Origin: Candidatus Bathyarchaeia archaeon
GTDB taxonomy: Archaea > Thermoproteota > Bathyarchaeia > TCS64
Reading direction: 5' to 3'
NCBI GenBank assembly: GCA_050014495.1
Contig: JBEKDF010000033.1
Location: 1 to 34,626 of the forward strand
Length of the DNA: 34,626 nt
Shown here: positions 2,196 to 34,626 of the stretch, piece after piece
How positions within the stretch are numbered: the stretch's first letter is position 1
Layout of the letters: each line of letters starts with the position of its first letter
Notes under the pieces: generated by a model
Seen by the model: the letters and a program-made list of their open reading frames with translations, nothing else
Database searches by the model: none
Told to the model about the DNA's origin: nothing
Program-made: the position numbers and the translations under genes

Positions 2196-2256
2196 AATTA
2201 ACCCTGGAATAATAACATCCATCAAATATGATATGGTTTACTCTTGCACCGCGCGC

Positions 2257-2371
2257 TGCCCTGTCCCTAAATTCAGAATAAACTTATCTTAACAGTGAAG
2301 GGTCCCGTCACCTATGGCGGCAACTAGAGGGGGTCAGTCCGTTAGGACAAGACGAACACGAGGCCCTTGAA
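2257..2371 (+). mobile_element. Left end of an IS4/IS5-like DDE element with the first ~10 transposase codons
   Basis: Terminal motif TGCCCTGTCCCTAAATT matches 30970-30986 and 34512-34528. About 2290-2371 aligns with the reverse complement of ~31677-31762 (LGQDEHEALET vs LGQDEHETLET). Bounded by tracts at 2251-2256 and 2372-2385. Confidence 0.8.
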
Positions 2372-2676
2372 ACGCGTGCGCGCGTCGATGTTCGAGAGTG
2401 TCGCGGGACGCGTCTTGATGTTCATGTCATGTACACCGTTTTCTGAGGTTTTTGTATCGGCGTTACGTAGTTAAAGTGGTTATGACGCGCTTGACTCAAT
2501 ATACTACTCGTTTACTCTTGGTGTGACAGATCCTCTGACAACAAGCCCATAACGGTGAGCGCGCATGCGTTCCTATCGCGGTCTGTCATTGGATCACCGT
2601 CGTGACTGCAGCCTAAGGCTGGACGACCACATTCAGCCCGAGAGGTTTATACATTCGACGGGTGGAAATGCAATTC

Positions 2677-3123
2677 ATGAGCGAAACCGAAAAGAGCGTC
2701 CCCCACGAACAGCTTCTCGTCTTCACAGGCCTGCTTGCCGGTTTTTCGTTTACAGCGTTGATGCTGATGCTGTAGTCCCCCGGGTCGTTCCGTGAGCTGA
2801 TCGGGCCAACGTATTCTGACGCCTACTTCGTCCTTCTGGTGAGCATACTAGCAATCGTTTCCACGGACCTGGTTTTCTGCAGCATCGGAATGTCACTTGC
2901 CGCGGCGGGATCGGACCCCTACGGGAGGCTGTGGAGCTTCAACGGCGTAACCTTCTACATTGGGTTTTTCGGGCTGTTGCTGGTCATTCCTCTCCTAGTC
3001 CTCCCCGTATCTCTCGTCACTGGCTTGACGGTCTTCGTGTTCGAGTTATTGTTTGGAGTCTGGCTCTTCAAGCGGGCTCCAAAGGTGCCGTTGAGGTCCC
3101 CCTATCACGAGCCTAACAATTGA
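2677..3123 (+). pseudogene. Multi-pass membrane protein (~148 codons) interrupted by one in-frame TAG
   Basis: ATG at 2677 gives MSETEKSVPHEQLLVFTGLLAGFSFTALMLML, then TAG at 2773-2775, then the same frame continues into track ORF 2839..3123. Confidence 0.65.
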
Positions 3124-3382
3124 CTATGGTGCGCGCGCTGTTTCCAAGCCCTCACAAGAACCCAAGCCGCGACAAATCGGCTATTATCGAACCGACAGAT
3201 ATCAAGAATGTAACAAGGTCAGATTTTGTCAGAGGGTTGAGAAGAAATACTCACCCAAAGATGCCGCTGATTAGAAAAACACTCAGTCCGCGCGCGCGTT
3301 CCCCAGCGCGCGCGTCTCTCGATTAGAACCTCTAATCTGCAATCGATAAATAGTCGTTTTTGTTAGAGTTTATTGACGCTGT

Positions 3383-3508
3383 ATGAGCGATGATGAGCTT
3401 AGATTGGCCTTCTTCGGGGTGGGGTTAACCCTTGCATTTCTCGGCCTGAGGTTTGCGCTGAGCGGGGATTTTGATAAGGTTAAAGACTATCTACGAATCA
3501 AAAGATAA
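3383..3508 (+). CDS. Small single-TM protein (41 aa)
   Basis: Manual translation MSDDELRLAFFGVGLTLAFLGLRFALSGDFDKVKDYLRIKR*; flanked by tracts at 3306 and 3511-3529. Confidence 0.5.
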   Translation: MSDDELRLAFFGVGLTLAFLGLRFALSGDFDKVKDYLRIKR

Positions 3509-3529
3509 GATGCGCAATACGCGTGCGCA

Positions 3530-3543
3530 GTGGGTAGCTCACA
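3530..3543 (+). mobile_element. 14-bp remnant of an IS200/IS605 right end
   Basis: GTGGGTAGCTCACA is identical to 32077-32090; the upstream hairpin arm is replaced by TACGCGTGCGCA. Confidence 0.6.
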
Positions 3544-4963
3544 CGTGAAGTCCCATGAGTCTAAGAAATGGCAGGATGATCCCAATGAATATACTAACCC
3601 CACCCAGGAGCTTTAAATAAAGATCTGAAAAGTTATTCGACACAAGTACTTGGAACGTCCTCCCATACACCAACTGACCAGTCTCCTTATCCTTCACCGA
3701 CACGACTATCGGCTTGTTCCCATTCTCCTTAACCTCGAAACAGAACCAGATAATACGCGCATCCTCCAAAATATGCGACATAAAACCAACGATATCCTGC
3801 TGGTGATCATTCGCCGAATCAGGACCAGATTTAGTGTAGATCGGCAGCGTATCTCCAGCGGGGAGATTAAAATTCCTCACCGGGAGAGTCAAAGTAACCT
3901 CAGAGGTTAAAGGACCGGTTGAGCCGCTCGCATAGCTGACACTGAACGTCTGAGTTTTCGTCGAGTCATTATTATAGAGAAAAACAAAGCACTTGACAAC
4001 CTGACCCTTATTCCTCTCGGGCGTAACCTCAGCATCGATATAATAATTGCTCCCCTTGATGCCTGGGAGGTCGTCCAGTATCTCCACGAATAATCTGTCA
4101 AGAAGTCGGGAGAACTCGGGCACGATTTTCTTGGTCTTGTTAAGTATTATTTTTAGTCGGTTGAACCCAAAAAATGGGTGTTGTTCGATATTCATAATAT
4201 CCTTTCCGGGCTTGAACAACTCGGAGACCTCGCTGCGAACGTCCTCTATTTTAAGCGCTCCGTATATGTTCTGGAACAGTAACACTGTGATCTTGCTGAG
4301 CGCATCCTCAAGATCCAAATCCTCCCTAACGTATCTGGATAAATCGCTGAGATACTCCCTGAATTTTAACCTGTTAAAGGGGTCGATGAACGTCTCCAAG
4401 AAGATGTCCGTTGTGAGCACTGTTGGCCAGTTATCTGGGACGTAGAGCCTCAGTAACTCATCGGGGTCGAGTACGTGCTCCCTCTTAATGATGGAGAAAC
4501 CGAAGGCAATCAGAGCAGATCCCATCGAGAGGTAGATGAAAATGACCTCGGTTGAGGTGCCTCCCAGAAGATACATGGAGAGAGAAGCCGTAGATAATAT
4601 TGTTAGCAGAACCGCAAACTGGGTCTCCTTGACGGAAGTCTCATTTAGCGCCTCAACCCCGATGAGCGATGCGTAGGGTAAGCCTTGTTTTTGGTATCGG
4701 TTGAGTATTTTTTTAAAGAGATAATTCATGACTAGGAAATTCGATAGTATTAGAACCGAGTCTATAACTAGTAAACACAATAATATCGTCACGGCTGCTC
4801 CAATGGGGTCACTCTGTAGAACTAGCCCTAGCTCAGTCGATACGCCGAGGATTATCGCTGCTATTATTGACGCGATTAGGATCGAGGGTAGCCCGATTCT
4901 TCTGTTATATGCTGCCAATATGTGGAGGTATTTATCATCGCTTTTGATGACGTTCAAATCCAA
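3539..4963 (-). CDS. Hypothetical membrane protein (N-terminal TM bundle, soluble domain, C-terminal TM)
   Basis: 474-aa ORF with TTG start and clear hydrophobic segments; no family recognised. Confidence 0.8.
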   Translation of the reverse strand: MDLNVIKSDDKYLHILAAYNRRIGLPSILIASIIAAIILGVSTELGLVLQSDPIGAAVTILLCLLVIDSVLILSNFLVMNYLFKKILNRYQKQGLPYASLIGVEALNETSVKETQFAVLLTILSTASLSMYLLGGTSTEVIFIYLSMGSALIAFGFSIIKREHVLDPDELLRLYVPDNWPTVLTTDIFLETFIDPFNRLKFREYLSDLSRYVREDLDLEDALSKITVLLFQNIYGALKIEDVRSEVSELFKPGKDIMNIEQHPFFGFNRLKIILNKTKKIVPEFSRLLDRLFVEILDDLPGIKGSNYYIDAEVTPERNKGQVVKCFVFLYNNDSTKTQTFSVSYASGSTGPLTSEVTLTLPVRNFNLPAGDTLPIYTKSGPDSANDHQQDIVGFMSHILEDARIIWFCFEVKENGNKPIVVSVKDKETGQLVYGRTFQVLVSNNFSDLYLKLLGGVSIFIGIILPFLRLMGLHV

Positions 4964-5124
4964 TGGTAGTTGTCGTTAACTGTATTTGAAATTTAAGTTG
5001 CGCGTGCTACCTTTGATGCACGCGAGTGCATTTGATCCACCGGTCTAACATGCTCATGAACGCGCGCGCGTTTACTATTCACGTAAGCTTATCACCGGTT
5101 CCTCCAAAACAAATGGGTAGCATT

Positions 5125-5415
5125 ATGTCTAAGGAGAAAAAGGGTACCCTGGCCGTTAAGAAGGAAAAGAAAACAGTGCCAGAAGCAAAAGAACCTGAAC
5201 CCGAAACTATTCAGGATTTCAACCAGATGTTAGATACGCTTCGCAGTGAGATAGTGTGGGATCCCTTCAGGGGATTCGAGTGGCCTGTAGAATACGAGCT
5301 TCCGACGAGGATACCCTATGTTGACGTCATTGACTCAGGTAAGGAGTATGTGGTTAAGGCTGAGCTTCCGGGGTTGAAGAAGGAGAATGTGGAGATTGAG
5401 GTCGGCGCGCGCTAG
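5125..5415 (+). pseudogene. Hsp20/alpha-crystallin small heat-shock protein, 3'-truncated
   Basis: PYVDVIDSGKEYVVKAELPGLKKENVEIEV, then GCGCGCGC (5405-5412) and TAG. The second half of the domain is absent. Confidence 0.88.
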
Positions 5416-5528
5416 ACCCAGCCCTAAAACAGCGTTACAACAACGAACAAATGTATATCATAGGATCAATTGTCGCAATCATCGCTGGTTTTGGCCTACT
5501 CATCTATGGGGCAGCACGCAGTCGCTGA
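5412..5528 (+). pseudogene. Orphan 3' fragment of a membrane protein gene
   Basis: LDPALKQRYNNEQMYIIGSIVAIIAGFGLLIYGAARSR* begins at the 5405 tract; next tract at 5551-5561. Confidence 0.5.
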
Positions 5529-5701
5529 ATGAAACGCTATAAAGAATATTCGTGCGCGCGCTGAAAGTCAACTTTCTATTTTCCATTTAATACGCGCACG
5601 TAGGTTAATCCGGTAGTCATTTTGTGAGCTCGTTTACCCCCTCAGTTTAGCGCGTGTCCGAATTGAAAAGTAGTTATTAACCCTCAGGAGGGTGTATATG
5701 T

Positions 5702-6358
5702 ATGCCATTCTGTCCATTCTGCGGGACACCTGTAAAGGAAAACCACAAGTTCTGCCCAAGTTGTGGCAACCCGCTGGAGCTCGTTCCCCAGATACCGACT
5801 CCAACACCCCAAGCGACACCTACTCCGCAACCCCAGCAGCCACAGCAACCAGCCTCTGCACCTCAGCCAGCCGCAGCGCCTCAACCCCCACAAGTGCAAA
5901 CGACACAGGGGGAGACGATAAGAGAGATTATACCCAACCTAAGCGTCTCTAAGAGCTTCGGCAGAACCGACACCTACAACCTCATAGTCACGGAGAGGAG
6001 AAGCATCTTCGCGAAGCTGACGACCGAGATCATAAATGAAACGGTGAAGATGAGACGCGATAAGGCCGCGGCGGAGGGAAAGGGCTTCTTCGGGAAGTGG
6101 AAGGCCCAGATGCAGGGCTTCAACACCTACACGGACTGGTACAAGGATAAGACACCCGACCAAGCACTGGGTGAGACACCAGGCAACTACGCCATCGACA
6201 ACTCCGCAATGAGAAACATCAAGGTAAAGGAGGACAGCGATGATGATAGCGGCATGGACCTGTACTACATCGAGATAACGACTCCAACGGGGAAGCTTAA
6301 ATTCAAGACACCGTATGACCCCCGGAAACTCCTTCAGGCGGCTTATGGAGGCGCGTAG
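5702..6358 (+). CDS. Zinc-ribbon protein with Pro/Gln-rich linker
   Basis: MPFCPFCG...KFCPSCG ribbon, PQ-rich linker and a globular C-terminal domain. Confidence 0.88.
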   Translation: MPFCPFCGTPVKENHKFCPSCGNPLELVPQIPTPTPQATPTPQPQQPQQPASAPQPAAAPQPPQVQTTQGETIREIIPNLSVSKSFGRTDTYNLIVTERRSIFAKLTTEIINETVKMRRDKAAAEGKGFFGKWKAQMQGFNTYTDWYKDKTPDQALGETPGNYAIDNSAMRNIKVKEDSDDDSGMDLYYIEITTPTGKLKFKTPYDPRKLLQAAYGGA

Positions 6359-6381
6359 TACGAGTCTACCGCATATGCCAA

Positions 6382-6408
6382 AGTCTTATCCCCCAAACCC
6401 AAACCCAA
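6382..6408 (+). repeat. 27-bp direct repeat, copy 1 (IS-terminus-like)
   Basis: AGTCTTATCCCCCAAACCCAAACCCAA, identical to 7390-7416; followed by ATATGCGCGTGCGCA at 6413-6427. Confidence 0.85.
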
Positions 6409-6653
6409 CCTTATATGCGCGTGCGCAACTAAATGATTGAGCTGGATCGGAGACCACCTAACCAGCATCACTTCTTCCGATCCTCCTCTCATTTTTAACC
6501 CGGCACTCTGGGAATCCACCTCTTAATCTCGCCAAGCGTGCCCCTCAGATACTTGGAAGAGTTGAGCTTAGCTTGGTCAAAATATTAAACGAATAAATGA
6601 TTATTAGTGCAATAGTGATTAAATTTATATGTATTTTTATCAAATTATACAAT

Positions 6654-6863
6654 ATGGCCTTTCTTAAACGAATTTATCAAGATGTCCAAGGAGTGAGTTG
6701 TCCATTATGTGGAGCATCTGTATTGAAAGATGCGAGAAATGCAAAAAAGATAACTTATTTCTGCAGCGGAAAAACAACCCACGACCTAACAAATAACAAG
6801 ACCATAAAGGCCTTTTTAATTGGAGAAGCACTAACCCGAGATCACAAACGCGCGCAAATCTAG
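6654..6863 (+). pseudogene. Small CxxC protein, probably 3'-truncated
   Basis: MAFLKRIY...CPLCG...FCSG; ends shortly after ACGCGCGCA (6848-6856). Confidence 0.45.
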
Positions 6864-6915
6864 AACGAATGAGGATGTTGAAATAGCACAATGTAAAAAT
6901 GGCTATTGAGGGATC

Positions 6916-7167
6916 TTGAAGGCATACATTCTTGTTAACACTGAGCTAGGGGAAACGTCGGAGGTCGTCAAAGAATTGAAAGGGATTATTGAGATCAAGA
7001 GTGTCTACGTCGTTTACGGCATCTACGACATAATAGTTGAAGTGGAGGCTGACACTATGGACAAGGTGAAGGAGATAGTCTTCAACAAGATCAGGCGCCT
7101 CAATTACGTGAAGAGCACTATCACACTCATAGCTTATGATGAGCCAATGCGCGAGCAGGTTCTATAA
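6916..7167 (+). CDS. Lrp/AsnC ligand-binding (RAM) domain protein
   Basis: KAYILVN...VYVVYGIYDIIVEVEA...IRRLNYVKSTITLI. Confidence 0.92.
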   Translation: MKAYILVNTELGETSEVVKELKGIIEIKSVYVVYGIYDIIVEVEADTMDKVKEIVFNKIRRLNYVKSTITLIAYDEPMREQVL

Positions 7168-7197
7168 AGAAAAGTCGACCATATTAACTCGGCATGC

Positions 7198-7344
7198 ATG
7201 AAGAAAGATCCTATCTGCGGTAAGATGGTAGATGAAAAGAAGATAAAATGGAGAAGTGATCACAAAGGTAAGAAATACTACTTTTGCAGCGAAAAACACA
7301 AACTAACATTTGATGAGAACCCAAAACGATTCGCAGCTCCATAA
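7198..7344 (+). CDS. YHS/TRASH domain protein (48 aa)
   Basis: Manual translation MKKDPICGKMVDEKKIKWRSDHKGKKYYFCSEKHKLTFDENPKRFAAP*; DPxCG and YYFCS motifs. Confidence 0.92.
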   Translation: MKKDPICGKMVDEKKIKWRSDHKGKKYYFCSEKHKLTFDENPKRFAAP

Positions 7345-7389
7345 TGTGCGCACAACGGCAGATTTTTTTAAAACTTTGAATTACTCCAT

Positions 7390-7416
7390 AGTCTTATCCC
7401 CCAAACCCAAACCCAA
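7390..7416 (+). repeat. 27-bp direct repeat, copy 2 (IS-terminus-like)
   Basis: Identical to 6382-6408. Confidence 0.85.
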
Positions 7417-7603
7417 GAACTTTCACTAATTCTTATCTATTCTCATCTACTATCTTACTTTCTTATTCTTTCCATCACTACACCACATCGTATCACGTAT
7501 ATCGCGTAATCTACAGAAAAAAAATACCTATTATAGAACTACGAATAGAAAGTTTAAAAATATAATCACGTTAGGACTATCTATCATAAATATATTGAGT
7601 TCA

Positions 7604-8523: not shown

Positions 8524-8687
8524 TGAAAATGCACAAACCTTTCAAACTATCACCAGATTATAACTCTAAATAATGTTTATCCTAAAGCGATCTGCGCTCG
8601 CGCAAAGAATACAAATCCCCTAAAAAACAAGAAATAGGTCATAATTTTTAATATCGGAATATTGTATTTTCGCGCGCGCGAAATAAA

Positions 8688-9717: not shown

Positions 9718-9741
9718 GTTCGCTATCTCCTATGCGCGCGC

Positions 9742-13895: not shown

Positions 13896-14248
13896 GCGCG
13901 CGCGCCCTGGAAGGAGGGAGTGCAATGGAACCCTAGCAACGAAAACTGCGTAGCTGGAAAAATACTTCTAAATCAAGATAATTCTAGAAACAGCTAGGTG
14001 ATGAATGGAGAGCTGTTCGAAGTAAACGTGATAAAATAAATCTGAATCTATTTGCGCACGCACTCTATTATTAAATGATGCGGACGAGAATGAATGTGAG
14101 ATTATGGTCCTGTTTTCAGCAGACGCGTTTAATCTTGGTTGGAGCTATCATTATCTCGATGCGCGAGTGTGCGCTGTGGCGTAATCAAACACCAGAAAAG
14201 TTCTTTTATTCTTCACTGAACACTCACTATATTACTCGGTGAATTGGA

Positions 14249-18241: not shown

Positions 18242-18421
18242 AAAAGTATACAGGGTCCATTCTTCCCTCCCGTAATGTACCATGGGTATGTTGGCTATGT
18301 GGATGTAGCTTTGCCTAGAGTCTTGCTTTCGATAACGTAAACTAATTTTGAAGAATTATCTCCAGATCCTGACACCCTCGCTGGCAAGATACCTTGAGAC
18401 TAGAGATGCAACGTCTGCGCG

Positions 18422-18471
18422 CGCGCAAAAGTTTCTGTCAGCACTCAATTTTATTCAAATTATAGCTCGGT
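18422..18471 (+). repeat. 50-bp dispersed repeat, copy 2
   Basis: Matches 13846-13895; starts within TGCGCGCGCGCA (18416-18427). Confidence 0.9.
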
Positions 18472-19277: not shown

Positions 19278-19367
19278 TCTCAGAGTGTTGCATCTGTGAT
19301 TCAACTAGCTTGAAGGCACGCGCGCAAGTGGAAAATGCTATATCAATTTTTAACTAAAGTGTGTCTT

Positions 19368-20216
19368 ATGAGTAATGATAAAATAAAGTCTAATGATATT
19401 AGGACAGAAATCCCTAATGGAATTTTAGTTGGCTATGAATCTCTAATCAAGCCGATGCGGGAAACGATAAACTCCGTTAAAGACATTAGAGATGGAACCG
19501 TGTATCTAAATAAAGTATCCTATAATGAGGATAAGTACTTTGAAATTCTAAATGATAGTAATTTAAAACTTTGGGATTATTATAACACGTTAATCAATCA
19601 ATATGATAAAATGGTCCAATTACTTGGATCTAACTCAGAAGAGGAAATTGATAATGTGAAACATTATTCTAAATTAATGGTGGATGCCATGAGGACGCTC
19701 ATTAATAATTATAAAGAAGTGAGGAGTATTAGCCCTCCAACTAGGTATTACCCAACACATCAAATGTTTATGGGGATATTTGAGAAAATATTTTTGGCTT
19801 GGGAATCTTATCTAAGTCAATTTGAGGCCTTGGTTAAAAATCCCCCAAATACTGGTGGGGAAATAACATTTGTCGCGGATTTTAGGTTTATTCCAGCGGA
19901 TCTACAGGAACTTAATAATACAGTTGCAAATATCGGAGCCTCGTCTCAGGCTTCAGTTGATGGAGGTGTCCTCAACAAATGTTTCGTCGTCACAGCTGTG
20001 TATGGATCTCCACTGGCCGATGAAATCAATCCATTTAGACGTTACCGAGATATCATACTAAGTAAGAGTGTCTTAGGCAGATCATTTATTCGGTTTTATT
20101 ATAAAGTTGGCCCATTCTTAGCTGTTCTAATAGAGGACTCCGTTCTTCTTCGGGAAGCTGTGAAAAAGTTAGTAATCGAGCCAATTTTAAAGATATTAGT
20201 GAAAAATGGATTTTAA
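19368..20216 (+). CDS. CFI-box-CTERM domain protein
   Basis: C-terminal CFVVTAVYGSPLADEINPFRRYRDIILSKSVLGRSFIRFYYKVGP. Confidence 0.88.
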   Translation: MSNDKIKSNDIRTEIPNGILVGYESLIKPMRETINSVKDIRDGTVYLNKVSYNEDKYFEILNDSNLKLWDYYNTLINQYDKMVQLLGSNSEEEIDNVKHYSKLMVDAMRTLINNYKEVRSISPPTRYYPTHQMFMGIFEKIFLAWESYLSQFEALVKNPPNTGGEITFVADFRFIPADLQELNNTVANIGASSQASVDGGVLNKCFVVTAVYGSPLADEINPFRRYRDIILSKSVLGRSFIRFYYKVGPFLAVLIEDSVLLREAVKKLVIEPILKILVKNGF

Positions 20217-20549: not shown

Positions 20550-21755
20550 TTATTCTTGGTTAGAAATTATTAATGTCTCGATATCATTCAAATCTGCCCT
20601 GATTGCATCTTCCATGGCTTCGAGTGATATCTTCACTTCATCGATCTTTGTTTTTGCGTTGCTAAGTGAGTTTTTCATGGCTCTGAGGTTTTCTAGTTGG
20701 CTTTTTATGGATGTTATCTTGGGGATTATGTCTTCGGGCTTTGCGCAGATGTCCTTCTGTTGTAGACGCATGATTAACTCGTCTCTGGCTACCTTGTAAG
20801 CTACCTCTAAGGAGATTGTGGCGCCTTCTTCGGGGACTCCACATATTATTTTTCCTCCATCGAATCTTCTGAAGGTCCCTACCGCATCTGGTACAAACTC
20901 ATCTCGTATAGCACCGATAGCATAGAGTGAGGACCTGTTGGTCTTTGCCTCATCGAGTTCCTTTAGGAAGCTATTCTTACCCTTGATTGTGACCGAGGTA
21001 TCCTTGCATTCAACGACTATTGACTGTGGAATTCCCCCGGTGTCCTTTGAGTTGATCTTGATGACTATGTCTCCGACTTTTCCTATAGGCCCGGATACGT
21101 CACCGACTGGCACAACTTCATCCTCCAGGGGTCTGGCCAATAGGTTGAGGGTATCGTATACGTAGTCCTGCCAGTCTCTACCCTTGGCTGTGCCTTTTTC
21201 CCTCTCCTCCTCCGTGGCGTTTTGCTTCGCTTCGGCTACTCTGATGTCGACGGTAAGTTTCTCGAATCTGTCGTCGATGCATTTTTTCATATCGTAGAAT
21301 GCTGAGCCTTCTTGACTTGGGTCGAGTTCCTTGTGGAGCTGCGTCATGAATCTGCCGAGTGGGGCGTTGGAGTCGGTTGGGTTCAGGATCTTGGTAACTA
21401 TTGTGCCGTCCTCACCAAAATGTTGCTCTAGTGATTTCGCGAGTTCTCCTTTGGGTCCGAGGAATTCGCTGAGTTGGCTGGTTAGTACACCGTCTTTGGA
21501 GAATAGTTTCTCCATCTCTGCATCGATATCGGTTTTGATTTTATCAAACTCGCTCTTAACAAAATCTACTCTCGAAGTTGTGTTCTGTGCCTGCAGGACC
21601 TGCAAGCCAATTATGATGGCCCTCTCGATGAGTTTTGGTCTCTCTCCTACTTCGATTAGGTTGAGTAGGTTTACGGTTGTGGAGTCCTTGATTCTAATCT
21701 TGATTACTGCTTCCGCGTCCTCAATCCTGACTTCCTCGACCAGCTGCTCCTCCAA
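20550..21755 (-). CDS. Coiled-coil protein with central PD-(D/E)xK nuclease-like domain (RmuC/DUF2130-like)
   Basis: KG..WQD.V, GDIVI and IVVECKD motifs between long heptad regions. Confidence 0.75.
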   Translation of the reverse strand: MEEQLVEEVRIEDAEAVIKIRIKDSTTVNLLNLIEVGERPKLIERAIIIGLQVLQAQNTTSRVDFVKSEFDKIKTDIDAEMEKLFSKDGVLTSQLSEFLGPKGELAKSLEQHFGEDGTIVTKILNPTDSNAPLGRFMTQLHKELDPSQEGSAFYDMKKCIDDRFEKLTVDIRVAEAKQNATEEEREKGTAKGRDWQDYVYDTLNLLARPLEDEVVPVGDVSGPIGKVGDIVIKINSKDTGGIPQSIVVECKDTSVTIKGKNSFLKELDEAKTNRSSLYAIGAIRDEFVPDAVGTFRRFDGGKIICGVPEEGATISLEVAYKVARDELIMRLQQKDICAKPEDIIPKITSIKSQLENLRAMKNSLSNAKTKIDEVKISLEAMEDAIRADLNDIETLIISNQE

Positions 21756-25186: not shown

Positions 25187-26197
25187 CTAATTGTTATCAT
25201 ACGCTTTTGTATTTTTTAGAAGATTCCTTGATATTTTTAGGTGTTTTATGAACCAGTCGTAGTCTCCATTGGGGAATATTACTTCGAGTTCGTCTGGTCC
25301 TCTTCGTCCCTGGTATTCACCGAGGATGATGACTTTCCCCACCTTCAGGAAGCCCATCACGTTGGCTAGTGTCTGGATTAGGCGCATGAAGCACCTGTGG
25401 GTGACTAGGCCTGACTCGATGGTTTTTGGGAGTTGGAAGAGGAAGTAGTCGAGGTTCTCAATCTTGCAGTAGTCGACCATCGCCGCGTCGCAGGTGAGGA
25501 CGACGGGGTAGACGCCGTGGATGCGTTTGTAGAAGCTGATGGTCCTCGTGAAGACGTCGTCGTTCCTCTCCTTGTCGGATGTGGTCTGGGCTGCGGCCTC
25601 GACCAGGAGGGCGTGGCTGCTCAGGGCCTCGTACTCCCTCAGGGCGAGGGCCGCGGCCTTCCTGGACTGCTTCATCCGCTGGTTGAGGAGCATGTCCCAG
25701 AGCTGGTGGTTGTAGGGTGTGCTGTGCTTCAGCTCCTCTATTTGGTGTGGGCCGTGTTTGTAGTTGAGGTGGGCCCTGATCTCCTCCTTGACGGTGTCTG
25801 AGAGTATGACCTTGTTGGGGTCGATGAGCTGGGTGGTTGTGAGGAATCCGTCGTAGAGGATGTTTGTGTCCGGGGCGTAGTATACTCGGCCCGTCCTGGA
25901 GTAGCCGTTGAGAGCCCCCTTAAAGTCGGGTAGGTTCGTGTAGGTGGTGGCCCCTGAGGCGAGGCTGCACTCGATGAGATCGTTCCAGGTGGGCCTCTCT
26001 CTGCGCCAGAGGTCTGAGTCGGTCTTGTCATCGAAGCTGGTTGGAGATGCAAGGACATGTAGCTGTACGCCTTCTCGTACCTGCGTTGCCCTAAATAGTT
26101 GTATACCTGTCATCGGATAAGTGACCTCTAGCTCGGGGTATGGTAGGTTGAGGAGCAGCTGGAGCTCGTCCCCGCTTATAGTTGCCTCGTGAGTCAC
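25187..26197 (-). CDS. PIN-domain ribonuclease (long archaeal type)
   Basis: YAPDTNILY, VKEEI, RNDDVF and VLTCD acidic motifs; GTG start overlaps the upstream stop (GTGA). Confidence 0.85.
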   Translation of the reverse strand: MTHEATISGDELQLLLNLPYPELEVTYPMTGIQLFRATQVREGVQLHVLASPTSFDDKTDSDLWRRERPTWNDLIECSLASGATTYTNLPDFKGALNGYSRTGRVYYAPDTNILYDGFLTTTQLIDPNKVILSDTVKEEIRAHLNYKHGPHQIEELKHSTPYNHQLWDMLLNQRMKQSRKAAALALREYEALSSHALLVEAAAQTTSDKERNDDVFTRTISFYKRIHGVYPVVLTCDAAMVDYCKIENLDYFLFQLPKTIESGLVTHRCFMRLIQTLANVMGFLKVGKVIILGEYQGRRGPDELEVIFPNGDYDWFIKHLKISRNLLKNTKAYDNN

Positions 26198-26595
26198 TGC
26201 GGGTGCCTCCTGGCCTCCTCGGCGAAGTCGATCATCAGGTAGTAGATGTGGTCGATGTGCTGCTTGGAGGCCGACAGTATCGCTCCGGCGACGAGAGCCT
26301 TTCTGCCCGGTGTGATGTCGAGGGCCGTCTCGTAGCCCTCATCCTTAAGCCTCTTCAGGTCGGTGCCGATCATGTTGCCCGACGCTATGAAGTCGCCCTC
26401 GTGGACCACCTTTACCTCCACTGTTGGTTGAAAGCCATACTCACTGGAGATGCTGCTTATGTCCTCAGGAATGTTTTGTGTTTCACTGTTTCCCTCCGCG
26501 TAGATCGTTACCTTGTCGGGGTGGTAGCCCTTCTCCTCGAGGACGGCGTAGTAGGAGTTGATAAGGGCCCAGGTGGAGCGGCCGAGACAGAGCAT
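26194..26595 (-). CDS. Stand-alone CARF-domain protein; native 5' end lost at ~26586
   Basis: LGRSTWAL (strand 1/loop) and ALDITPGRK CARF signature. The first three codons (MLC) come from the antisense strand of the AOR fragment. Confidence 0.75.
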   Translation of the reverse strand: MLCLGRSTWALINSYYAVLEEKGYHPDKVTIYAEGNSETQNIPEDISSISSEYGFQPTVEVKVVHEGDFIASGNMIGTDLKRLKDEGYETALDITPGRKALVAGAILSASKQHIDHIYYLMIDFAEEARRHPQ

Positions 26596-28038
26596 CTAAT
26601 CAGAAAAGAGACGGGCTTCAGCGACACCGCCATAGTAGCCGAGGGACCAGCATCGGAGAACCTAGTAAAATACTCTGCCGTGACTCATACCGCTCACCGC
26701 GCCGCTGGAAGAACCGGCTTGGGAGCCGTCATGGGCTCCAAGAAGCTGAAGGCGATCGCGGCAAGAGGCACCAATAAGGTCGAGGTCGCCTCCCCCGAGA
26801 AGGTGAGAGAGCTCCAGAAGAAGATCACTAAGGAGACATTCGAGAGCAAATTCACCTCCACCCTCCGAGAGCACGGCCAGATCGGATTCCTCCTAGACCT
26901 AAACAACGACGGGATTCTCCCCACCAAAAACTTCCAAAGCGGCGTCTTCCAAGGAGCCAACAAGATCACGGGGCAAACACTGACGAAACAATTGCTGAAG
27001 ACGAGAGAATCATGCCCCAGATGCCCAGTAGCATGCAAACGAGTCGTGGAAGTCAAAGAAGGGCCCTACGCCCCCGTCTCACCCGAGTACGGGGGACCAG
27101 AGTATGAAAGCACCGCCGCCCTCGGCTCGTTACTATGCATAGACGATTTAGAAGCCATATGCCGAATGAACATGCTATGCAACGCATACAGCCTTGACAC
27201 GATCTCAACCGGAGTCTGCATCGCGTTCGCGATGGAGTGCTACGAGAACGGACTCCTATCCAAGGAAGACACCGGGGGACTGGAGCTAAACTTCGGAAAC
27301 GCCGACGCCGCCATCAAGCTACTCGAGATGATCTCATCAAGGGAGGGCCTAGGCAACCTATTAGCTGAGGGAGTGAAAAAAGCAGCGGAGAAAATCGGGC
27401 GAGGATCAGAGAAATACGCAGTAGAAATAAAGGGCCTGGAGATCCCCATGCATGAGCCCAGAGGAAAAAAGGGCCTCGCCGTAATGTATGCGACCTCCAA
27501 CAGAGGCGGATGCCACATGCAGAGCATGCACGACACAGACATCGAAGCCCCCAACATGGCCCCCGAAATAGGCATGACCAAGGCACTAAACCGATTAGAC
27601 ACCTCCAGAGAGAAGGTCCTATACCTGAAGAAGACAGGCGACTGGACCGCCATGATCAACTCAATGGGGCTCTGCTCGAACATCTACTGGTTCGGAGCCG
27701 TCTACTACAGACCAAGCCAACTAGTCGAGATACTGAACGCAGTGACGGGCTGGGACTACACAGTGGAGGACTTCATGACGACGGGCGAAAGGATCAACAC
27801 CTACTGCCGAATGTTCAACATCAGAGAAGGCATAACAAAAAGGGATGACAGCCTACCACCACGCTTCATGGAACCCCTCATAGGGGGACCCACCAACGGA
27901 CAGTTCATCTCAACCAGGGAAATCGAATCCATGCTCGGTGACTACTACGAGATATGTGGCTGGGATAGAGAAACTGGAATCCCTAAGAAGGAGAGGCTAG
28001 CAGAACTAGGCTTAGTGAACACTGAAATTGGTTCATAA
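26581..28038 (+). pseudogene. aor: Tungsten aldehyde:ferredoxin oxidoreductase (AOR family), 5'-truncated
   Basis: GPASENLV, AAGRTGLGAVMGSKKLKAI, CPRCPVAC, GPEYES, LDTIS, GCH. The N-terminal part is absent; track-ORF residues before 26581 are antisense CARF sequence. Confidence 0.88.
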
Positions 28039-30416: not shown

Positions 30417-30487
30417 AACCGGGCCCTTTTGTAGACAGGGAATGAGGCAAATAGATAGTCTACTCCACTTCCTTGAATCGCGCGCGC

Positions 30488-30604
30488 CTTTTTCGCGTAA
30501 AGAGGAAGCCTGACAACATCAGAAGAGGCTGAAGAAGCCCCATTATTATCCCCGAGGTTAAGGCAAACCGACTGCATGAAGGCAAGGGAGCCAAAGTCAC
30601 TCAT
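30488..30604 (-). pseudogene. Possible N-terminal gene fragment cut at a (GC)n tract
   Basis: ATG 26 bp downstream of the 30631..30888 gene; the frame hits CGCGCGCGC (30479-30487) and then reads antisense into the ppk1 region. Confidence 0.35.
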
Positions 30605-30630
30605 GATCTTATACTAATGAGCACCCGAGA

Positions 30631-30888
30631 TTATTTCGCGTTGTAGAAAGTATCCTCCACCACGCCTTGCTTCATTACTTGTTTGACTACATGCCCTTCA
30701 TTTACAAGGTTCTCCAAGGCATTACGAACCATCTGGACACCTATAGCATATCCACCTGCTTTCCCAAGAAGAAGACCCGCACCAGCTGTCCCGGAAAAGT
30801 TCGCGATCTGAAACACAGTAAATGAGGTGCCACGATTCTCCTTTAGATAAGTGAGGATTCGCTCCTCGAACGCGTCCATGTTGACCAC
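30631..30888 (-). CDS. Small winged-helix-like protein
   Basis: EERILTYLKEN...FTVFQIA...VRNALENLVNEGHVVK. Confidence 0.7.
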   Translation of the reverse strand: MVNMDAFEERILTYLKENRGTSFTVFQIANFSGTAGAGLLLGKAGGYAIGVQMVRNALENLVNEGHVVKQVMKQGVVEDTFYNAK

Positions 30889-30969
30889 TCTAAACTACAA
30901 ATAACCATTATTTTTATGATATTTAATTCTATGTAATGGATACTTCATGTGATAGAGTGGGATGCGCGC

Positions 30970-31801
30970 CGGCCCGTCCCTAAATTAAATACTCTAGAAC
31001 AACAACCACCAACAAAACCCAACAATCAACCCCAACGAAGATCCAACACCCATAAAACCCCACTGACAAACCACACCACCAGCAAGACGACTGTAAAAAC
31101 GACACAGACAAGCCCAGCACCCACTAACAACGGCCCACCCCAACCCGAGACGCCGGCCGTCACACGTTGAAGAACGTAGGCGACAACGCCTTATCCGACC
31201 TGCCCAGATTCTCCGCCGCCTCCCGATTCAACACGCAGCACAACACGCTAAGCAGCGCATACACCGACACGTTCAGCAGACCCCTCACCCTGTTCACCGT
31301 CAACCCATACTGGTTCTTCACAAAGGCGAACAGCGCCTCAACAGCGGGCCTCCTACGATACAACTCCACCAGATCCTCCGGGCCATGAGTCCTGAACCTC
31401 CGGTCCACCCGAAGCACATCCTCACCCCGCCTCTGGCCAGCCGTATAAGGAATAACCGAGTCCTCCACCAGGCCCCTCACCCTCCCGCTGCTGTACTGGC
31501 TATCAGCGATCAGACACCTCAGCTGGGCACCCACCCTCGATAGGACCATTCGGCTCCTCTCCACCAGCGTCGAAGCGTGCCTCTTCTCGTTCTCGTTCGC
31601 GCGCGCGGTCCGGTGGTGTGGTAACATCCGAGGAGTTGCTGTTGGGCAATGCTTAAGTCGACGTTTTTGAAGAGTGTTTCAAGGGTCTCGTGTTCATCTT
31701 GTCCTAAGTGAACTCACCTCCTCTGGTTGGGCAGACCGTTGGGGGACGAGACCCCAACTGTATTCATCAGGTTTGGAAACCCTTAACCTTTAGACGGGAT
31801 C
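30970..31801 (-). mobile_element. IS4/IS5-like DDE insertion sequence with a large internal deletion
   Basis: Right end CGGCCCGTCCCTAAATT. C-terminal transposase 31160-31597 has ADSQY and the YREK signature YRRRPAVEALFAFVK. N-terminal ~33 codons (31707-31608, LGQDEHETLETLFKNVDLS...YHTTGP) lie in another frame. The parts are joined at CGCGCGCGCG (31598-31607). Left boundary is approximate. Confidence 0.88.
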
Positions 31802-31810
31802 ACTGTAACC

Positions 31811-31978
31811 ATGTTCGTCTTCAACGGTGACATCGGGGTAATCCTGATCGTACTTGGCATAATACTCATGGCGGTGGCCGCTATGGTGAAGCAGTTCCGT
31901 GGACTCAGTTCTGTGGGGAGACTATGTCTGATCATCGGCGCCGTCATCTTCATTCTGGAGCTGATTCTAAGAATCTAA
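31811..31978 (+). CDS. Small two-TM membrane protein (55 aa)
   Basis: Manual translation MFVFNGDIGVILIVLGIILMAVAAMVKQFRGLSSVGRLCLIIGAVIFILELILRI*. Confidence 0.7.
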   Translation: MFVFNGDIGVILIVLGIILMAVAAMVKQFRGLSSVGRLCLIIGAVIFILELILRI

Positions 31979-32012
31979 TTTACAATCAGTTCCCCAGAAA
32001 GCGCGCGCGTGC

Positions 32013-32090
32013 TCCACCCAGCTCAGTGATGTTGGGTGAGTCGCCTCGGTGAATCAGGAAGCCCACCTCTTTAGAGGTGGGTAGCTCACA
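32013..32090 (+). mobile_element. Right end of an IS200/IS605 (tnpB-type) element
   Basis: GAATCAGGAAG, hairpin CCCACCTCT-TT-AGAGGTGGG (32062-32081), then TAGCTCAC, the typical right-end layout. Tracts at 32001-32012 and 32107-32113. Confidence 0.82.
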
Positions 32091-32183
32091 GATTAAAAAA
32101 TACTCTCGCGCGCTAGCCTCCACAATTTTTTAAACCGCTCAGATAATCCAAAGAGCACAGTAGCGAAGGTAAGGCGAAGGTAA

Positions 32184-33317
32184 ATGAAGCCACTCGATGG
32201 ATTGAGGGTCCTGGATCTTACACAGGCGCAGGCGGGTCCGATGTGCACGATGTTCCTAGCTGATATGGGCGCTGACGTAATCAAGATTGAGCCCCCCTGG
32301 GGGGAGATGACTAGGCGCTTCCCACCACTCGTCAACGGGGTAAGCCCTTACTACCTCTACCTAAACAGGGGAAAGAGAGGGATCACCCTCAACCTGAAGA
32401 GCGAGAAGGGTATCGAGATCTTCAAGAAACTGGTCAAGCTGTCGGACATCGTAGTCGAGAACTTTAGCCCAGGCACCATGGACAAGATGGGAATTGGATA
32501 CGATGCGCTAAGCGACATCAATCCAAAGATATTATTCGCCTCCATCTCCGGCTTCGGGCAGACCGGCCCCCACTCCCAGAGACTGTCCTTCGACCCAATC
32601 GCCCAGGCATCCAGCGGCTACATGGAGCTCACCAGAATAAAGATCGACCCCGACGGCCCACCAGTCTACCCGCCCGAAGCAATAGCGGACACAATCCCAG
32701 CATTGTTCTGCCTAGTTGGAGTCCTATCAGCAATACACCACAGAGACAAAACAGGCGTAGGCCAGAGGATCGAGTTAGCCCAGGTGGACTCAATGATATC
32801 CGTGATGCCCTCAATATCCTTCCACATACAGGCCGGCATCACCTTCTCCGAATCACTGAAGAAGTATGCGTTGTCCGTCGAAGAGATCTACAAGGCAAAG
32901 GATGGCTACATCGTCTTGACCGTACCGGGCGAAATGCAGGACAGACTTGCGCAGATGATTGGCGTCGAACCACATGAGGTTGACAGCCAGAAAGTCAGGA
33001 GATGGGTAGAGGATAAAACTGTGGATGAGGCGGTCCACCTCCTAGAGAAGGCGAGACTGCCGGTCTCACGCGTCCTAGGCCTCGACGAAGTGATCAGCGA
33101 CCCCCAGGTAAGAGCCCGCGAGATGATCGTGAGACTGGAAGACCCCGTTGTTGGAGAGGTGAGGATACCAGGTTTCCCGGTCAAGTTCTCGGAGACACCA
33201 ACGAATGTAGAGAGGACCGCACCTACCCTGGGCGAACATAACCAGGAGGTGCTCACCACACTTCTTGGCCTAAGCCCGGAGAAAGTTAAAAGCCTAAAGG
33301 AAGAGGGTGTCCTTTAA
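32184..33317 (+). CDS. Family III CoA-transferase (CaiB/BaiF)
   Basis: PLDGLRVLDLT, GADVIKIEPP, LNRGKR, VENFSPG, SISGFGQTGP, APTLGEHN. Confidence 0.96.
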   Translation: MKPLDGLRVLDLTQAQAGPMCTMFLADMGADVIKIEPPWGEMTRRFPPLVNGVSPYYLYLNRGKRGITLNLKSEKGIEIFKKLVKLSDIVVENFSPGTMDKMGIGYDALSDINPKILFASISGFGQTGPHSQRLSFDPIAQASSGYMELTRIKIDPDGPPVYPPEAIADTIPALFCLVGVLSAIHHRDKTGVGQRIELAQVDSMISVMPSISFHIQAGITFSESLKKYALSVEEIYKAKDGYIVLTVPGEMQDRLAQMIGVEPHEVDSQKVRRWVEDKTVDEAVHLLEKARLPVSRVLGLDEVISDPQVRAREMIVRLEDPVVGEVRIPGFPVKFSETPTNVERTAPTLGEHNQEVLTTLLGLSPEKVKSLKEEGVL

Positions 33318-33374
33318 TGCTCGTGTGTCTGTACGCTGCGCGCGCGAGAACTCCTCGTCATGCGCGCGCGCACG

Positions 33375-33553
33375 ATCTCGTCGTTTGGTACCTCCTTTAG
33401 ATCGATGAACTTGAGCTTGTGTCCCTCATCCAGCACCTTCTGGACAATCACCCTTACCTCCTCAAGAGACGGCACGACGCCTCCACCCCCCGTTGAGAGG
33501 GAGGTGCTGCCAATCTGGTAATCTAAAACATCCTCTAGTGTCAAGTATTTCAT
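33375..33553 (-). pseudogene. DUF917-family protein, N-terminal ~60 codons only
   Basis: MKYLTLEDVLDYQIGSTSLSTGGGG...IDLKEVPNDEIV; cut at CATGCGCGCGCGCACG (33359-33374). Confidence 0.75.
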
Positions 33554-33714
33554 CGGTGTTATCAACTATCCTCGGCATCAATATTGTATATAACAATTCT
33601 GAGCGATATTATTGACAGCATATTTCGATCTCGTGGCGTCTACTCTATGCAACTCATTTTAGTCGAGGCATCATAGCTAATGATATAAACCTCCAATCAA
33701 TCGTTGCATGTAAC

Positions 33715-34383
33715 ATGAAGAAGATTGGCATACTGACGATAGGACAATCTCCCAGACCAGACGTCGTGGGGGAGTTCCTGCGCGTCCTCGGCAGCGACTA
33801 CAAGATCATTGAAAGGGGCGCGCTCGACGATTTCTCTATCGAGGAGCTGAGGAGCAGGAAGGTGGCGCCCGGAGAGAGAATACTCGTCACAAAGCTCAGG
33901 GACGGGGAGGAGATCAAGGTATCGCATGACCTCGTCATATCCAACATACAGAAGGGCATCGACTACCTCGAGGGAAAGACGGTGGACATCATCCTCCTCC
34001 TTTGCACGGGCAATTTCCCCGAGTTCAAGTCCAAGTGTCTCGTAGTCCAACCCTCCGACATCGTCAGGGGGGTAGTCAAGGGGTTGCTCAGAAGCGGCAA
34101 GCTGGCCGTGGTCGTCCCAGCGAGGGAGCAGATACCGAAGGGTAAGTCGGACGCCTTCGGGAAAGATGTCGAAGTCTACTACGATACTGCCTCCCCGTAC
34201 GGGTCGATGGCCGAGTTCAAGGAGATGGCGGCCAGGATCTCGAGGGCGAACGTGGATCTGGTGTTCCTCGATTGCATGGGCTTCACACATGAGATGAAGC
34301 AAGTGGTAAAGGAGACGACGGGAAAACCCGTCATCCTATCAAACGCGCTGGTTGCACGCGTCCTGCAGGAGATCGCCGAGTAG
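33715..34383 (+). CDS. AroM-family protein
   Basis: LTIGQSPRPD, GALD, LVTKLRDG, LLCTGNFP, ASPY, LDCMGF. Confidence 0.92.
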   Translation: MKKIGILTIGQSPRPDVVGEFLRVLGSDYKIIERGALDDFSIEELRSRKVAPGERILVTKLRDGEEIKVSHDLVISNIQKGIDYLEGKTVDIILLLCTGNFPEFKSKCLVVQPSDIVRGVVKGLLRSGKLAVVVPAREQIPKGKSDAFGKDVEVYYDTASPYGSMAEFKEMAARISRANVDLVFLDCMGFTHEMKQVVKETTGKPVILSNALVARVLQEIAE

Positions 34384-34421
34384 CTGCTTTTTGAATCGAT
34401 CATTATAGAGGACGCGCGCGC

Positions 34422-34503
34422 TCCCTGACCCGGCGGCTGCTGATCTGGCTGTCCCCGATCAGGCACCTCAGCCTCGCCTCGGCCCATTCAAGCACCATTC
34501 TAG
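34422..34503 (-). pseudogene. ~80-bp internal fragment of the same DDE transposase family
   Basis: RMVLEWAEARLRCLIGDSQISSRRVRE vs RMVLSRVGAQLRCLIADSQYSSGRVRG in the 31160-31597 copy; tracts at 34412-34421 and 34505-34511. Confidence 0.85.
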
Positions 34504-34511
34504 CCGCGCGC

Positions 34512-34626
34512 TGCCTTGTCCCGAAATTACCCCGATATTGGTTTTAAATGGTCTTAATTCCCCTCACAGGATTTAATGGCAAATACGGGCATATCCTAAA
34601 CACCTCACCTCCTCGTAGAAGCGATT
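34512..34626. mobile_element. Terminus of another copy of the DDE IS family (runs off the window)
   Basis: TGCCTTGTCCCGAAATT, similar to 2257-2273 and 30970-30986. Confidence 0.65.

What the first reader, a model, noticed from the sequence alone, without database searches (positions are those of the whole stretch)
2251..34528. Three termini of one DDE IS family each directly follow GCGCGC
GCGCGC-TGCCCTGTCCCTAAATT (2251), GCGCGC-CGGCCCGTCCCTAAATT (30964) and GCGCGC-TGCCTTGTCCCGAAATT (34506) are in identical register. Either the element targets (GC)n, so that insertion, excision and adjacent deletions create or extend tracts, or transposase cuts at its ends are healed with a scar. This is the best in-window candidate driver of the pattern.
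Basis: partly seen in the sequence, partly recalled or inferred. Interest (0 to 1): 0.72.

Follow-up and report, generated by a model that had tools for sequence, protein, structure and literature searches.

The report
Transposon that lands on GC-repeat scars
A family of jumping genes in sediment archaea sits directly against short GCGCGC runs at both of its ends; these runs mark places where DNA was lost and rejoined and also fill genomes in which this jumping gene was not found, so they are likely its landing sites, probably written by the host's own break repair, rather than its product.

Summary
Observation confirmed. The three termini follow GCGCGC in register. So do 64 of 75 family termini genome-wide and elements across Bathyarchaeia whose transposases are as little as ~30% identical. 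The family is an unclassified IS1182/IS5-like DDE group (~330-aa transposase, 17-bp inverted repeats). It targets (GC)n runs and duplicates at most 4 bp; up to two of the six bases may belong to the element.

The 'driver' reading is not supported. The ~600 free runs are junction scars: in 49 of 72 testable sides the parent copy lacks even GCGC. The same runs and junction type fill a genome where neither this IS, any DDE_Tnp_1 or IS110 transposase, nor LigD polymerase was found (gapped assembly). Some IS-bearing genomes have almost no runs.

Best reading: an unidentified host end-joining step writes the runs and the IS follows them. An IS110-family element, likely RNA-guided, in turn targets the IS-run joint. 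No empty allele was found, so the exact duplication length is inferred. The scan noted these runs before on other DNA, with conflicting readings.

The parts
2250..2256 (.). (GC)n run (7 nt) abutting the left terminus; target half-site
2257..2373 (+). Left-end remnant (117 bp, 17-bp inverted repeat first) of the DDE IS; 95% identical to bases 1-116 of the intact copy G000:C61:6043-7308
2374..2384 (.). GC run (one T inside) at which the remnant breaks off; absent from the intact copy
30964..30969 (.). GCGCGC abutting the right terminus
30970..31597 (-). 3' half of an IS copy (right inverted repeat at 30970-30986; C-terminal transposase fragment 31160-31627, DDE_Tnp_1 E 1.6e-10)
31598..31607 (.). 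10-nt (CG)5 run standing in place of 454-456 bp of transposase gene in 14 listed homolog rows, none with a run there
31608..31761 (-). 5' part of the same IS type (element bases 45-199), left inverted repeat lost
32001..32009 (.). 9-nt run standing in place of 1255 bp of an IS605-type TnpB element (homolog G000:C19): the scars are not confined to this IS family
34413..34421 (.). 9-nt run at the break of an internal transposase fragment
34423..34504 (-). Internal fragment of the transposase gene (element bases ~703-777), bounded by runs on both sides
34505..34511 (.). (GC)n run (7 nt) abutting the third terminus; not present in the intact transposase gene it adjoins
34512..34626 (+). End of a non-autonomous derivative (72% to the 418-bp element G000:C34:18636-19053); identical at six contig ends, this one included (collapsed repeat); relatives carry a winged-HTH ORF instead of the transposase

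Best explanation
The three termini belong to a Bathyarchaeia-centred group of IS1182/IS5-like DDE insertion sequences whose ends always abut (GC)n runs, which the element likely uses as its target, likely duplicating the central GCGC, while the runs themselves mark deletion junctions and are likely written by a host break-joining step that does not need this IS. Shown: element anatomy (1.1-1.35 kb autonomous copies, ~330-aa transposase, 17-bp imperfect inverted repeats, 418-466-bp non-autonomous derivatives); flank conservation; absence of the runs from parent copies; 1-2-nt microhomology at junctions; run-rich genomes without a detectable IS. Inferred: the order (run first, IS second); a 4-bp duplication (no empty allele seen); that the writer is a host polymerase step. 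In that step a broken end would be extended with alternating G and C, starting from a 1-2-nt G/C match, until the self-complementary tail (about 7-10 bp) can pair with the other end and be ligated. For the IS the runs would be safe landing sites, because they mark DNA already broken and dispensable. IS excision probably adds breaks in IS-rich genomes.
For: Target: 64 of 75 termini follow >=6 nt of run. In 166 ends from other genomes and metagenomes, positions -1 to -4 are GCGC in 97-98%, then 93%, 89%, 67%, 55% at -5 to -8. A duplication is read from both sides, so mismatch rates must mirror: -1 vs -4 equal (3 vs 3 of 166), -1 vs -6 not (3 vs 18, p 0.001), -1 vs -8 not (3 vs 74). 11 of 55 intact elements allow a direct repeat of only 2 or 4 bp. 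The same flank is seen at subfamilies 29-38% identical and in run-poor genomes. Run first: of 42 IS ends whose flank has a homolog, 33 homologs lack the run, 6 have it, 3 are unclear (counted by eye). One copy in a few-contig assembly sits where the homolog has 420 GCGC-free bp. Of 72 free-run sides with a >=85% homolog, 49 share <=3 nt of the run; 33 of those 49 share >=1 nt against 25% expected (p 4e-10). A 26-bp GCGC-free segment is replaced by a 7-nt run between two close relatives (96%/88% flanks). IS not needed: of 221 class genomes, 41 are run-rich (>=30 nine-mer hits) and 21 of them have no match to the family profile at 1e-25. 8 of 10 rechecked at 1e-5 still have none. G079 (40% GC) has the most runs, the same drop above 10 nt (54 then 7 in 822 kb), 10 of 18 testable sides at junctions whose paralog lacks the run, 1 of 512 sides with a loose IR-like match, no family terminus at 249 gap edges, and no DDE_Tnp_1 or Transposase_20 match. 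IS not sufficient: G183 (4 matches, 0 nine-mers), G169 (1, 0), G069 (4, 3), G162 (9, 16).
Against: No writer enzyme was identified. LigD primase-polymerase is not associated with run richness (17 of 41 rich genomes vs 50 of 180 others; outside the own genus 5 of 27 vs 48 of 177). No reverse transcriptase or C5-methyltransferase was found in 5 test genomes, and no polymerase B or primase-family gene particular to the run-rich ones. IS presence is associated with run richness (20 of 41 vs 29 of 180, odds ratio 5; 2.6, p 0.06 outside the own genus; kin are not independent), which fits either direction. The IS-free genomes are incomplete: G079 is 86% complete and its single record is a scaffold with 127 gaps in the part read, so collapsed IS copies could be missing, and an extinct IS cannot be excluded. 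With a 4-bp duplication the implied targets are longer than free runs (20 of 55 at >=11 nt, against 12 free runs of >=11 nt in G000); part of this may come from non-cognate flank pairs (L127 and L128 share one flank). 5 of 7 longer lost segments contain a GCGC that could have seeded an insertion. No empty allele turned up in 8 runs.
Confidence: 0.64

Rival explanations
1. The IS is the driver: insertion at natural GCGC sites, excision that leaves the duplication, and repeated one-sided deletions from the run create and spread the runs; IS-free run-rich genomes have lost or failed to assemble the element.
For: Class-wide association of IS and runs (odds ratio 5). Natural 4-6-nt sites plus 4 would give 8-10 nt, the observed ceiling. 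About 6 of 55 intact elements sit in sites of <=6 nt under 4-bp arithmetic. 5 of 7 lost segments hold a GCGC. The IS-free assemblies are gapped.
Against: Runs replace short GCGC-free segments (26 bp; ~35 bp at lower identity). Runs have both neighbours foreign inside single collinear elements of three families. G079 has junction runs against 96-100% identical paralogs yet no IS trace. Re-insertion into 8-10-nt runs with footprints would pile up 12-14-mers, which are rare. IS-bearing genomes exist with 0-3 nine-mers.
Confidence: 0.17
2. Boundary variant: the element's true ends include the proximal GC, with a 2-bp duplication (GC) in the middle of a run; or the element carries a 4-nt GCGC overhang from donor to target as piggyBac carries TTAA. 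The target preference stands either way.
For: The first base of the 17-bp repeat varies (T, C, A, G) even between the two ends of one element, while the preceding GC does not. Subtracting 6 instead of 4 makes implied target lengths match free runs with a flatter preference curve. All 6 intact elements with a variant 4-mer at one end have GCGC at the other (L073, L145, L167, L182, L197, G000:C48). The model's nearest solved folds are Tn5 and piggyBac transposases.
Against: One end (L035) has no GC at all after the repeat. A recent copy (G000:C29) and six others vary at -1 or -2. A tandem junction has exactly GCGC between two ends and a 4-nt flank (L157). The six asymmetric cases are all transitions and could be later mutations.
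Confidence: 0.3
3. The runs are written by the Ku/LigD non-homologous end-joining system encoded in this genome.
For: G000 has a complete LigD-Pol, Ku, ligase-phosphoesterase operon. 14 of 17 other members of the genus have Ku. Junction microhomology of 1-2 nt is typical of polymerase-aided joining (general knowledge).
Against: G001 and G010 have Ku and LigD-Pol and 0-1 nine-mers. 24 of 41 run-rich genomes have no LigD-Pol match, among them G079, G021, G098 and G203. There is no association outside the own genus. All are incomplete assemblies.
Confidence: 0.07
4. The runs are selected binding or recombination signals (like REP or HIP1 repeats) kept in intergenic DNA, which the IS targets and at which deletions stop.
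For: Sharp, shared length ceiling and lineage-specific flanking dinucleotides (AT in G000, TA in G079); mostly intergenic by eye.
Against: Runs are rarely conserved between homologs and appear inside transposase genes with both neighbours foreign, including against 97-100% identical parents. Density varies from 0 to 12 per 10 kb between contigs. No C5-methyltransferase was found.
Confidence: 0.08

Closest known systems
IS1182 family (NCBIfam NF033551; IS1272 of Staphylococcus aureus, PMC5678879: abstract and passages seen)
   Same: DUF772 N-terminal domain plus DDE_Tnp_1; best NCBIfam match for all 17 aligned members; ~16-17-bp inverted repeats; IS1272 also picks palindromic targets and leaves target deletions.
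   Different: Transposase ~330 aa against a 488-position model; 94.7 bits against a cut-off of 270 for the first member. IS1272 replaces inverted-repeat structures of unrelated sequence without any duplication, whereas this group needs a sequence-defined (GC)n run and keeps GCGC on both sides.
IS5 family (NF033581 IS5_4; ISH1 group of haloarchaea)
   Same: Compact size; IS5_4 model matches full length (14-306 of 331); only plasmid hit is an annotated IS5-family transposase at 31%; a Y-x2-R-x3-E-x6-K pattern around the catalytic E273 is visible in alignment A1 (its assignment to IS4/IS5-type enzymes is recalled).
   Different: 84 bits against a cut-off of 140. The one ISH1 duplication quoted in PMC7002104 (passages seen) is 8 bp, excluded here.
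IS targeting REP/BIME or other repeats; IS4321/IS5075 targeting Tn21 terminal repeats (reference title in PMC11187229); bridge-RNA IS110 elements (bioRxiv 10.1101/2024.01.24.577089, passages seen)
   Same: Insertion into a dispensable, repeated host sequence; an IS110-family element that inserts at another element's end.
   Different: The target is a 6-10-nt dinucleotide run that arises anew at junctions, not an inherited repeat family. REP targeting by DDE elements is recalled, not checked.
piggyBac (TTAA) and Tn5 transposases
   Same: Nearest solved folds of the predicted model (Tn5 E 1.3e-5, piggyBac 6.5e-5); short palindromic 4-bp core as in piggyBac.
   Different: 9-13% identity, TM-score 0.43-0.50; the mechanism of this group is untested.
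Ku/LigD non-homologous end joining and microhomology-mediated end joining in archaea (recalled)
   Same: Deletion junctions with 1-2-nt microhomology and added bases.
   Different: The added sequence is a fixed alternating G/C run of about 7-10 nt, and it does not track Ku or LigD polymerase.

Membership tests
DDE insertion sequence (IS4-like superfamily) | Single transposase with D, D, E triad and RNase H-like fold | tested here: met
   D129 invariant, D219 and E273 >=90% in 17 members; Pfam DDE_Tnp_1 over cut-off; model pLDDT 88.6, nearest folds Tn5/piggyBac
DDE insertion sequence (IS4-like superfamily) | Terminal inverted repeats and short flanking direct repeat | tested here: met
   17-bp imperfect repeats; GCGC on both sides in 52 of 55 intact elements; exact boundary inferred
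IS1182 family | Score over the curated cut-off of NF033551 (270 bits), ~450-550-aa transposase | tested here: not met
   94.7 and 91.2 bits for two G000 copies; ~330 aa; best member E 5e-52, bit score not shown
IS1182 family | DUF772 N-terminal domain | tested here: met
   PF05598 37.8 bits, cut-off 23.1; on all 120 listed homologs
IS5 family | Score over the cut-off of an IS5 model | tested here: not met
   IS5_4 84 of 140 bits; IS5_3 30 of 110 for the first member
IS5 family, ISH1 group | 8-bp target duplication | tested here: not met
   position -8 is G in 92 of 166 ends while -1 is C in 163 of 166
IS1272-type replacing transposition | No duplication; target inverted repeat removed on insertion | tested here: inconclusive
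   no empty allele; deletions under insertions exist but also occur at runs without an IS
piggyBac-type carried overhang | 4-nt target overhang carried on the excised element, seamless excision | not testable with these tools
   6 of 6 variant cases asymmetric, compatible but also explained by later transitions
Ku/LigD end joining as writer of the runs | Co-occurrence of Ku and LigD polymerase with the runs | tested here: not met
IS110/IS1111 family (side element) | DEDD transposase, subterminal inverted repeats, non-coding region with target guides | tested here: met
   PF01548 + PF02371; subterminal repeats; guide-like segments matching both halves of the target; RNA itself not shown

The most novel reading that the evidence does not exclude
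Many Bathyarchaeia rejoin broken DNA by writing a self-complementary (GC)4-5 linker, independently of Ku and LigD. A dedicated DDE IS lineage has specialised on these scars as safe landing sites, and an RNA-guided IS110 element is programmed against the joint between that IS and the scar: a three-tier system built on an undescribed archaeal end-joining route.
Probability: 0.4. Interest if true: 0.82.

Novelty: new variant of a known kind. Interest (0 to 1): 0.56.

Why it matters
A compact (~330-aa) transposase with near-absolute specificity for a GC dinucleotide run is an unusual targeting mode for a prokaryotic IS and is directly testable in vitro. More important, using the IS as a probe separates target from cause: the runs look like sequence written at repair junctions in lineages that often lack detectable Ku/LigD. 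How archaea without classical end joining mend double-strand breaks is an open question, and this gives it a sequence signature that can be followed in genomes and tested with purified replicative polymerase or primase. If instead the IS made the runs, the case is an ordinary transposon footprint and matters less.

Tried and rejected
8-bp and 6-bp duplication: rejected by mirror-position mismatch rates.

GCGCGC wholly part of the element: rejected (flank lengths 4-10, variants, tandem junction with 4 nt).

Assembly artefact: rejected.

Empty allele: sought in 8 public runs on two stretches (no joint skipping an element) and among homologs of 241 flanks; none found.

Simple +4 footprints in collinear homologs: none among 759 runs tested.

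Writer candidates: Ku/LigD, reverse transcriptase (0 of 5 genomes), extra polymerase B or primase-family genes (no pattern in 5 genomes), C5-methyltransferase or GCGC avoidance (0 of 5; GCGC obs/exp 0.91-1.21), IS110 (0 of 4 run-rich genomes). None fits.

Protein-level truncation test at G079 runs: 1 of 94 against 0-2 per control set, uninformative with the small protein set used; the DNA-level test was used instead.

Sequence search of solved structures found nothing. Outside the class only 3 partial matches appeared among the phylum sample of 301 genomes.

My working assumption that G079 and G021 are closed genomes was wrong; both carry 100-base gap spacers.

Literature searches for a (GC)n-targeting IS or a GC-writing repair route listed nothing on this by title or abstract start. 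The library lacks most subscription papers and ISfinder, and the 2007 review of archaeal IS was not held. No supplements were read.


Full report
OBSERVATION. The window is contig C33 of a 3.1-Mb, 92-contig genome; close homologs of its transposase lie in records titled Bathyarchaeia. GCGCGC begins at 2251, 30964 and 34506 and is followed immediately by the quoted 17-mers. The chance for three of three is about 6e-9 at the window's own GCGCGC density. Motif searches that ignored the flank found 85 candidate termini in the genome. I dropped 10 with no downstream similarity to the family (two kept hits also lacked it). Of the 75 kept, 64 follow at least GCGCGC, 5 follow 4-5 nt, 4 follow a single-transition variant and 2 have an IS110-family element wedged between terminus and run. 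Contigs of another public run match long parts of the window without differences.

THE ELEMENT. Intact copies are G000:C61:6043-7308, C5:82611-83894 and C43:15781-17065: 1.27-1.29 kb, 17-bp imperfect inverted repeats, one ~330-aa ORF. The ORF has DUF772 and DDE_Tnp_1 domains and a D129-D219-E273 triad; its predicted structure is closest to Tn5 and piggyBac transposases. It scores below the cut-off of the IS-family models shown (IS1182 94.7 of 270; IS5_4 84 of 140), so it works like an IS1182/IS5-type element but is not filed as a member. At least 2137 protein clusters match the profile. It is found in 49 of 221 class genomes and in only 3 genomes, as partial matches, outside the class in a phylum sample of 301. 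Non-autonomous derivatives of 418-466 bp exist; two of three examined carry a winged-HTH ORF. In the window, 2257-2373 is a left-end remnant, 30970-31761 an internally deleted copy, and 34512-34626 the end of a derivative present at six contig ends, this one included.

TARGET AND DUPLICATION. In 166 ends from other genomes and metagenomes, flank positions -1 to -4 are GCGC in 97-98%, then 93%, 89%, 67% and 55% at -5 to -8 (two false hits and one IS110-joined end are included). A duplication is read once from each side, so its positions must be equally variable in mirror image. That holds for -1/-4 but not for -1/-6 (p 0.001) or -1/-8. Of 62 listed end pairs I removed one false pair and six joined to IS110; of the 55 left, 11 allow a direct repeat of only 2 or 4 bp, 33 up to 6, 8 up to 8, and 3 have a variant on one side. 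The duplication is therefore at most 4 bp, centred in a run of usually 8 or more. The same flank holds for subfamilies 29-38% identical and in genomes with almost no free runs. Two things remain open. The first base of the repeat varies while the preceding GC does not, and subtracting 6 rather than 4 fits free run lengths better, so the element may end in GC with a 2-bp duplication. All six intact elements with a variant core have GCGC at the other end, as a piggyBac-like carried overhang or later transitions would give. Pairs from short-read assemblies can be non-cognate (L127, L128). No empty allele was found.

THE RUNS ARE JUNCTION SCARS. G000 holds 645 runs of 7 nt or more, with 192, 144 and 111 of lengths 8-10 and then 5 of length 11; the other dinucleotide pairs decay geometrically. 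Of 1249 free-run sides, 72 have a homolog of at least 85% identity reaching the run. In 49 the homolog shares at most 3 nt of it, and 33 of these 49 share at least 1 nt against 25% expected: junctions with 1-2-nt microhomology and new alternating G/C. Collinear deletions carry a run at the joint: 455 bp in this IS (window 31598-31607), 1255 bp in an IS605-type TnpB element (window 32001-32009), 316-317 bp elsewhere, and a GCGC-free 26-bp segment between two close relatives. Five of seven longer lost segments do contain a GCGC, none a GCGCGC. Runs next to IS ends are of the same kind: 33 of 42 flank homologs lack the run, 6 have it, 3 are unclear (by eye).

IS IT THE DRIVER? In 221 class genomes, 41 are run-rich (30 or more nine-mer hits; my threshold). 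Twenty of these and 29 of the other 180 carry the IS (odds ratio 5; 2.6, p 0.06, outside the own genus; kin are not independent), an association expected in either direction. Against sufficiency: G183, G169, G069 and G162 carry the IS with 0, 0, 3 and 16 nine-mer hits. Against necessity: 8 of 10 run-rich genomes rechecked at E 1e-5 have no match and two have only 30-60-aa fragments. G079, at 40% GC, has the highest count and the same ceiling (70, 44, 54, then 7 in 822 kb read). Ten of its 18 testable sides are junctions whose paralog lacks the run, three against 96-100% identical paralogs (12 share <=3 nt; two of these are point-mutated runs). One of 512 run sides gives a loose IR-like match, no family terminus or transposase trace was seen at 249 gap edges or in the pieces read, and no DDE_Tnp_1 or Transposase_20 match was found. 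Caveat: G079 is 86% complete and gapped, as is G021, and run density near gap edges is raised (47 of 249 against 8%), so hidden or extinct elements are not excluded.

WHO WRITES THEM? G000 has a full Ku/LigD operon, but LigD polymerase does not track the runs (17 of 41 vs 50 of 180; 5 of 27 vs 48 of 177 outside the genus), and two Ku-positive relatives have 0-1 nine-mers. Reverse transcriptase, C5-methyltransferase, extra polymerase B or primase genes and IS110 gave no fitting pattern in five-genome tests. The writer is unidentified. My inference is a core polymerase or primase step that extends a broken end with alternating G and C until the self-complementary tail pairs with the other end; a 7-10-bp duplex would explain the ceiling. 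This step is untested.

A THIRD LAYER. An IS110-family element (370 aa) sits exactly between IS terminus and run in at least 10 loci. Its upstream non-coding region has two guide-like segments, one matching the run side and one the terminus side on opposite strands, overlapping at a 2-bp core. The terminus-side segment matches the last 4 nt of the terminus variant actually hit in 9 of 10 copies (two copies come from one genome). This resembles the bridge-RNA target loop (bioRxiv 10.1101/2024.01.24.577089, passages) and IS4321/IS5075 targeting Tn21 ends (reference title and passages in PMC11187229). The RNA was not shown.

COMPARISON AND NOVELTY. IS1272 (PMC5678879, abstract and passages) is the closest described behaviour, but it replaces inverted repeats without duplication. 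An ISH1 duplication quoted in PMC7002104 (passages) is 8 bp. Searches listed no paper on a (GC)n-targeting IS or GC-writing repair (listings only; subscription papers, ISfinder and supplements not seen). Earlier notes of this scan described the runs on other DNA, some as transposon scars and one as written repair scars. The tests here favour the latter, with the IS as follower.

VERDICT. The IS targets the runs (about 0.9); it is probably not their origin (about 0.75). The combined best explanation has confidence 0.64. It is a new variant of a known kind, interest 0.56, with a 0.4 chance of an undescribed archaeal end-joining route behind it.

Noticed in passing
G000:C17:57460-58774 (L007) and C48:5779-7090 (L005); also L019, L049, L084, L106, L126, L138, L139, L150, L162: IS110-family element inserted exactly at the joint between the DDE-IS terminus and its GC run; guide-like segments in its upstream non-coding region covary with the terminus variant hit (9 of 10 copies).
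   Followed up: partly
G000:C79:7080-7543, C48:7091-7556, C34:18636-19053; window 34512-34626: Non-autonomous 418-466-bp derivatives; two carry a 120-130-aa ArsR/DeoR-like winged-HTH ORF with a Cys-rich tail in place of the transposase; several are recent multicopy families.
   Followed up: partly
L035:1185-2681: An element of a distant subfamily lies between two 98% identical copies of a ~200-bp segment; only one end abuts a GC run. Possibly a very long target duplication.
   Followed up: partly
G079 stretches (L255-L274, L293-L312) versus G000: The dinucleotide next to the runs is lineage-specific (TA in G079, AT in G000), often giving a longer palindrome; G079 also shows short TAGC repeats.
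   Followed up: no
L072:5437-9464 (G000:C3): Complete LigD primase-polymerase, Ku, ligase-phosphoesterase operon with a DUF72 gene; LigD-Pol found in 67 of 221 class genomes.
   Followed up: yes
window 183-633: IS110-family N-terminal fragment (DEDD_Tnp_IS110) preceded by two GC runs (183-188, 209-215); the second marks a junction against a 97% identical paralog.
   Followed up: partly
window 13896-13905 and 18417-18426: A segment of about 55 bp occurs twice in the window near these runs; the run at 13896-13905 has foreign neighbours on both sides.
   Followed up: partly
window 26182-28038: Aldehyde:ferredoxin oxidoreductase ORF whose N-terminal domain matches only model positions 136-199 of 199; possibly truncated or frameshifted.
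   Followed up: no
window 3539-4963, 19335-20216, 20550-21755, 25187-26197: Four ORFs of 293-474 aa without a Pfam match.
   Followed up: no
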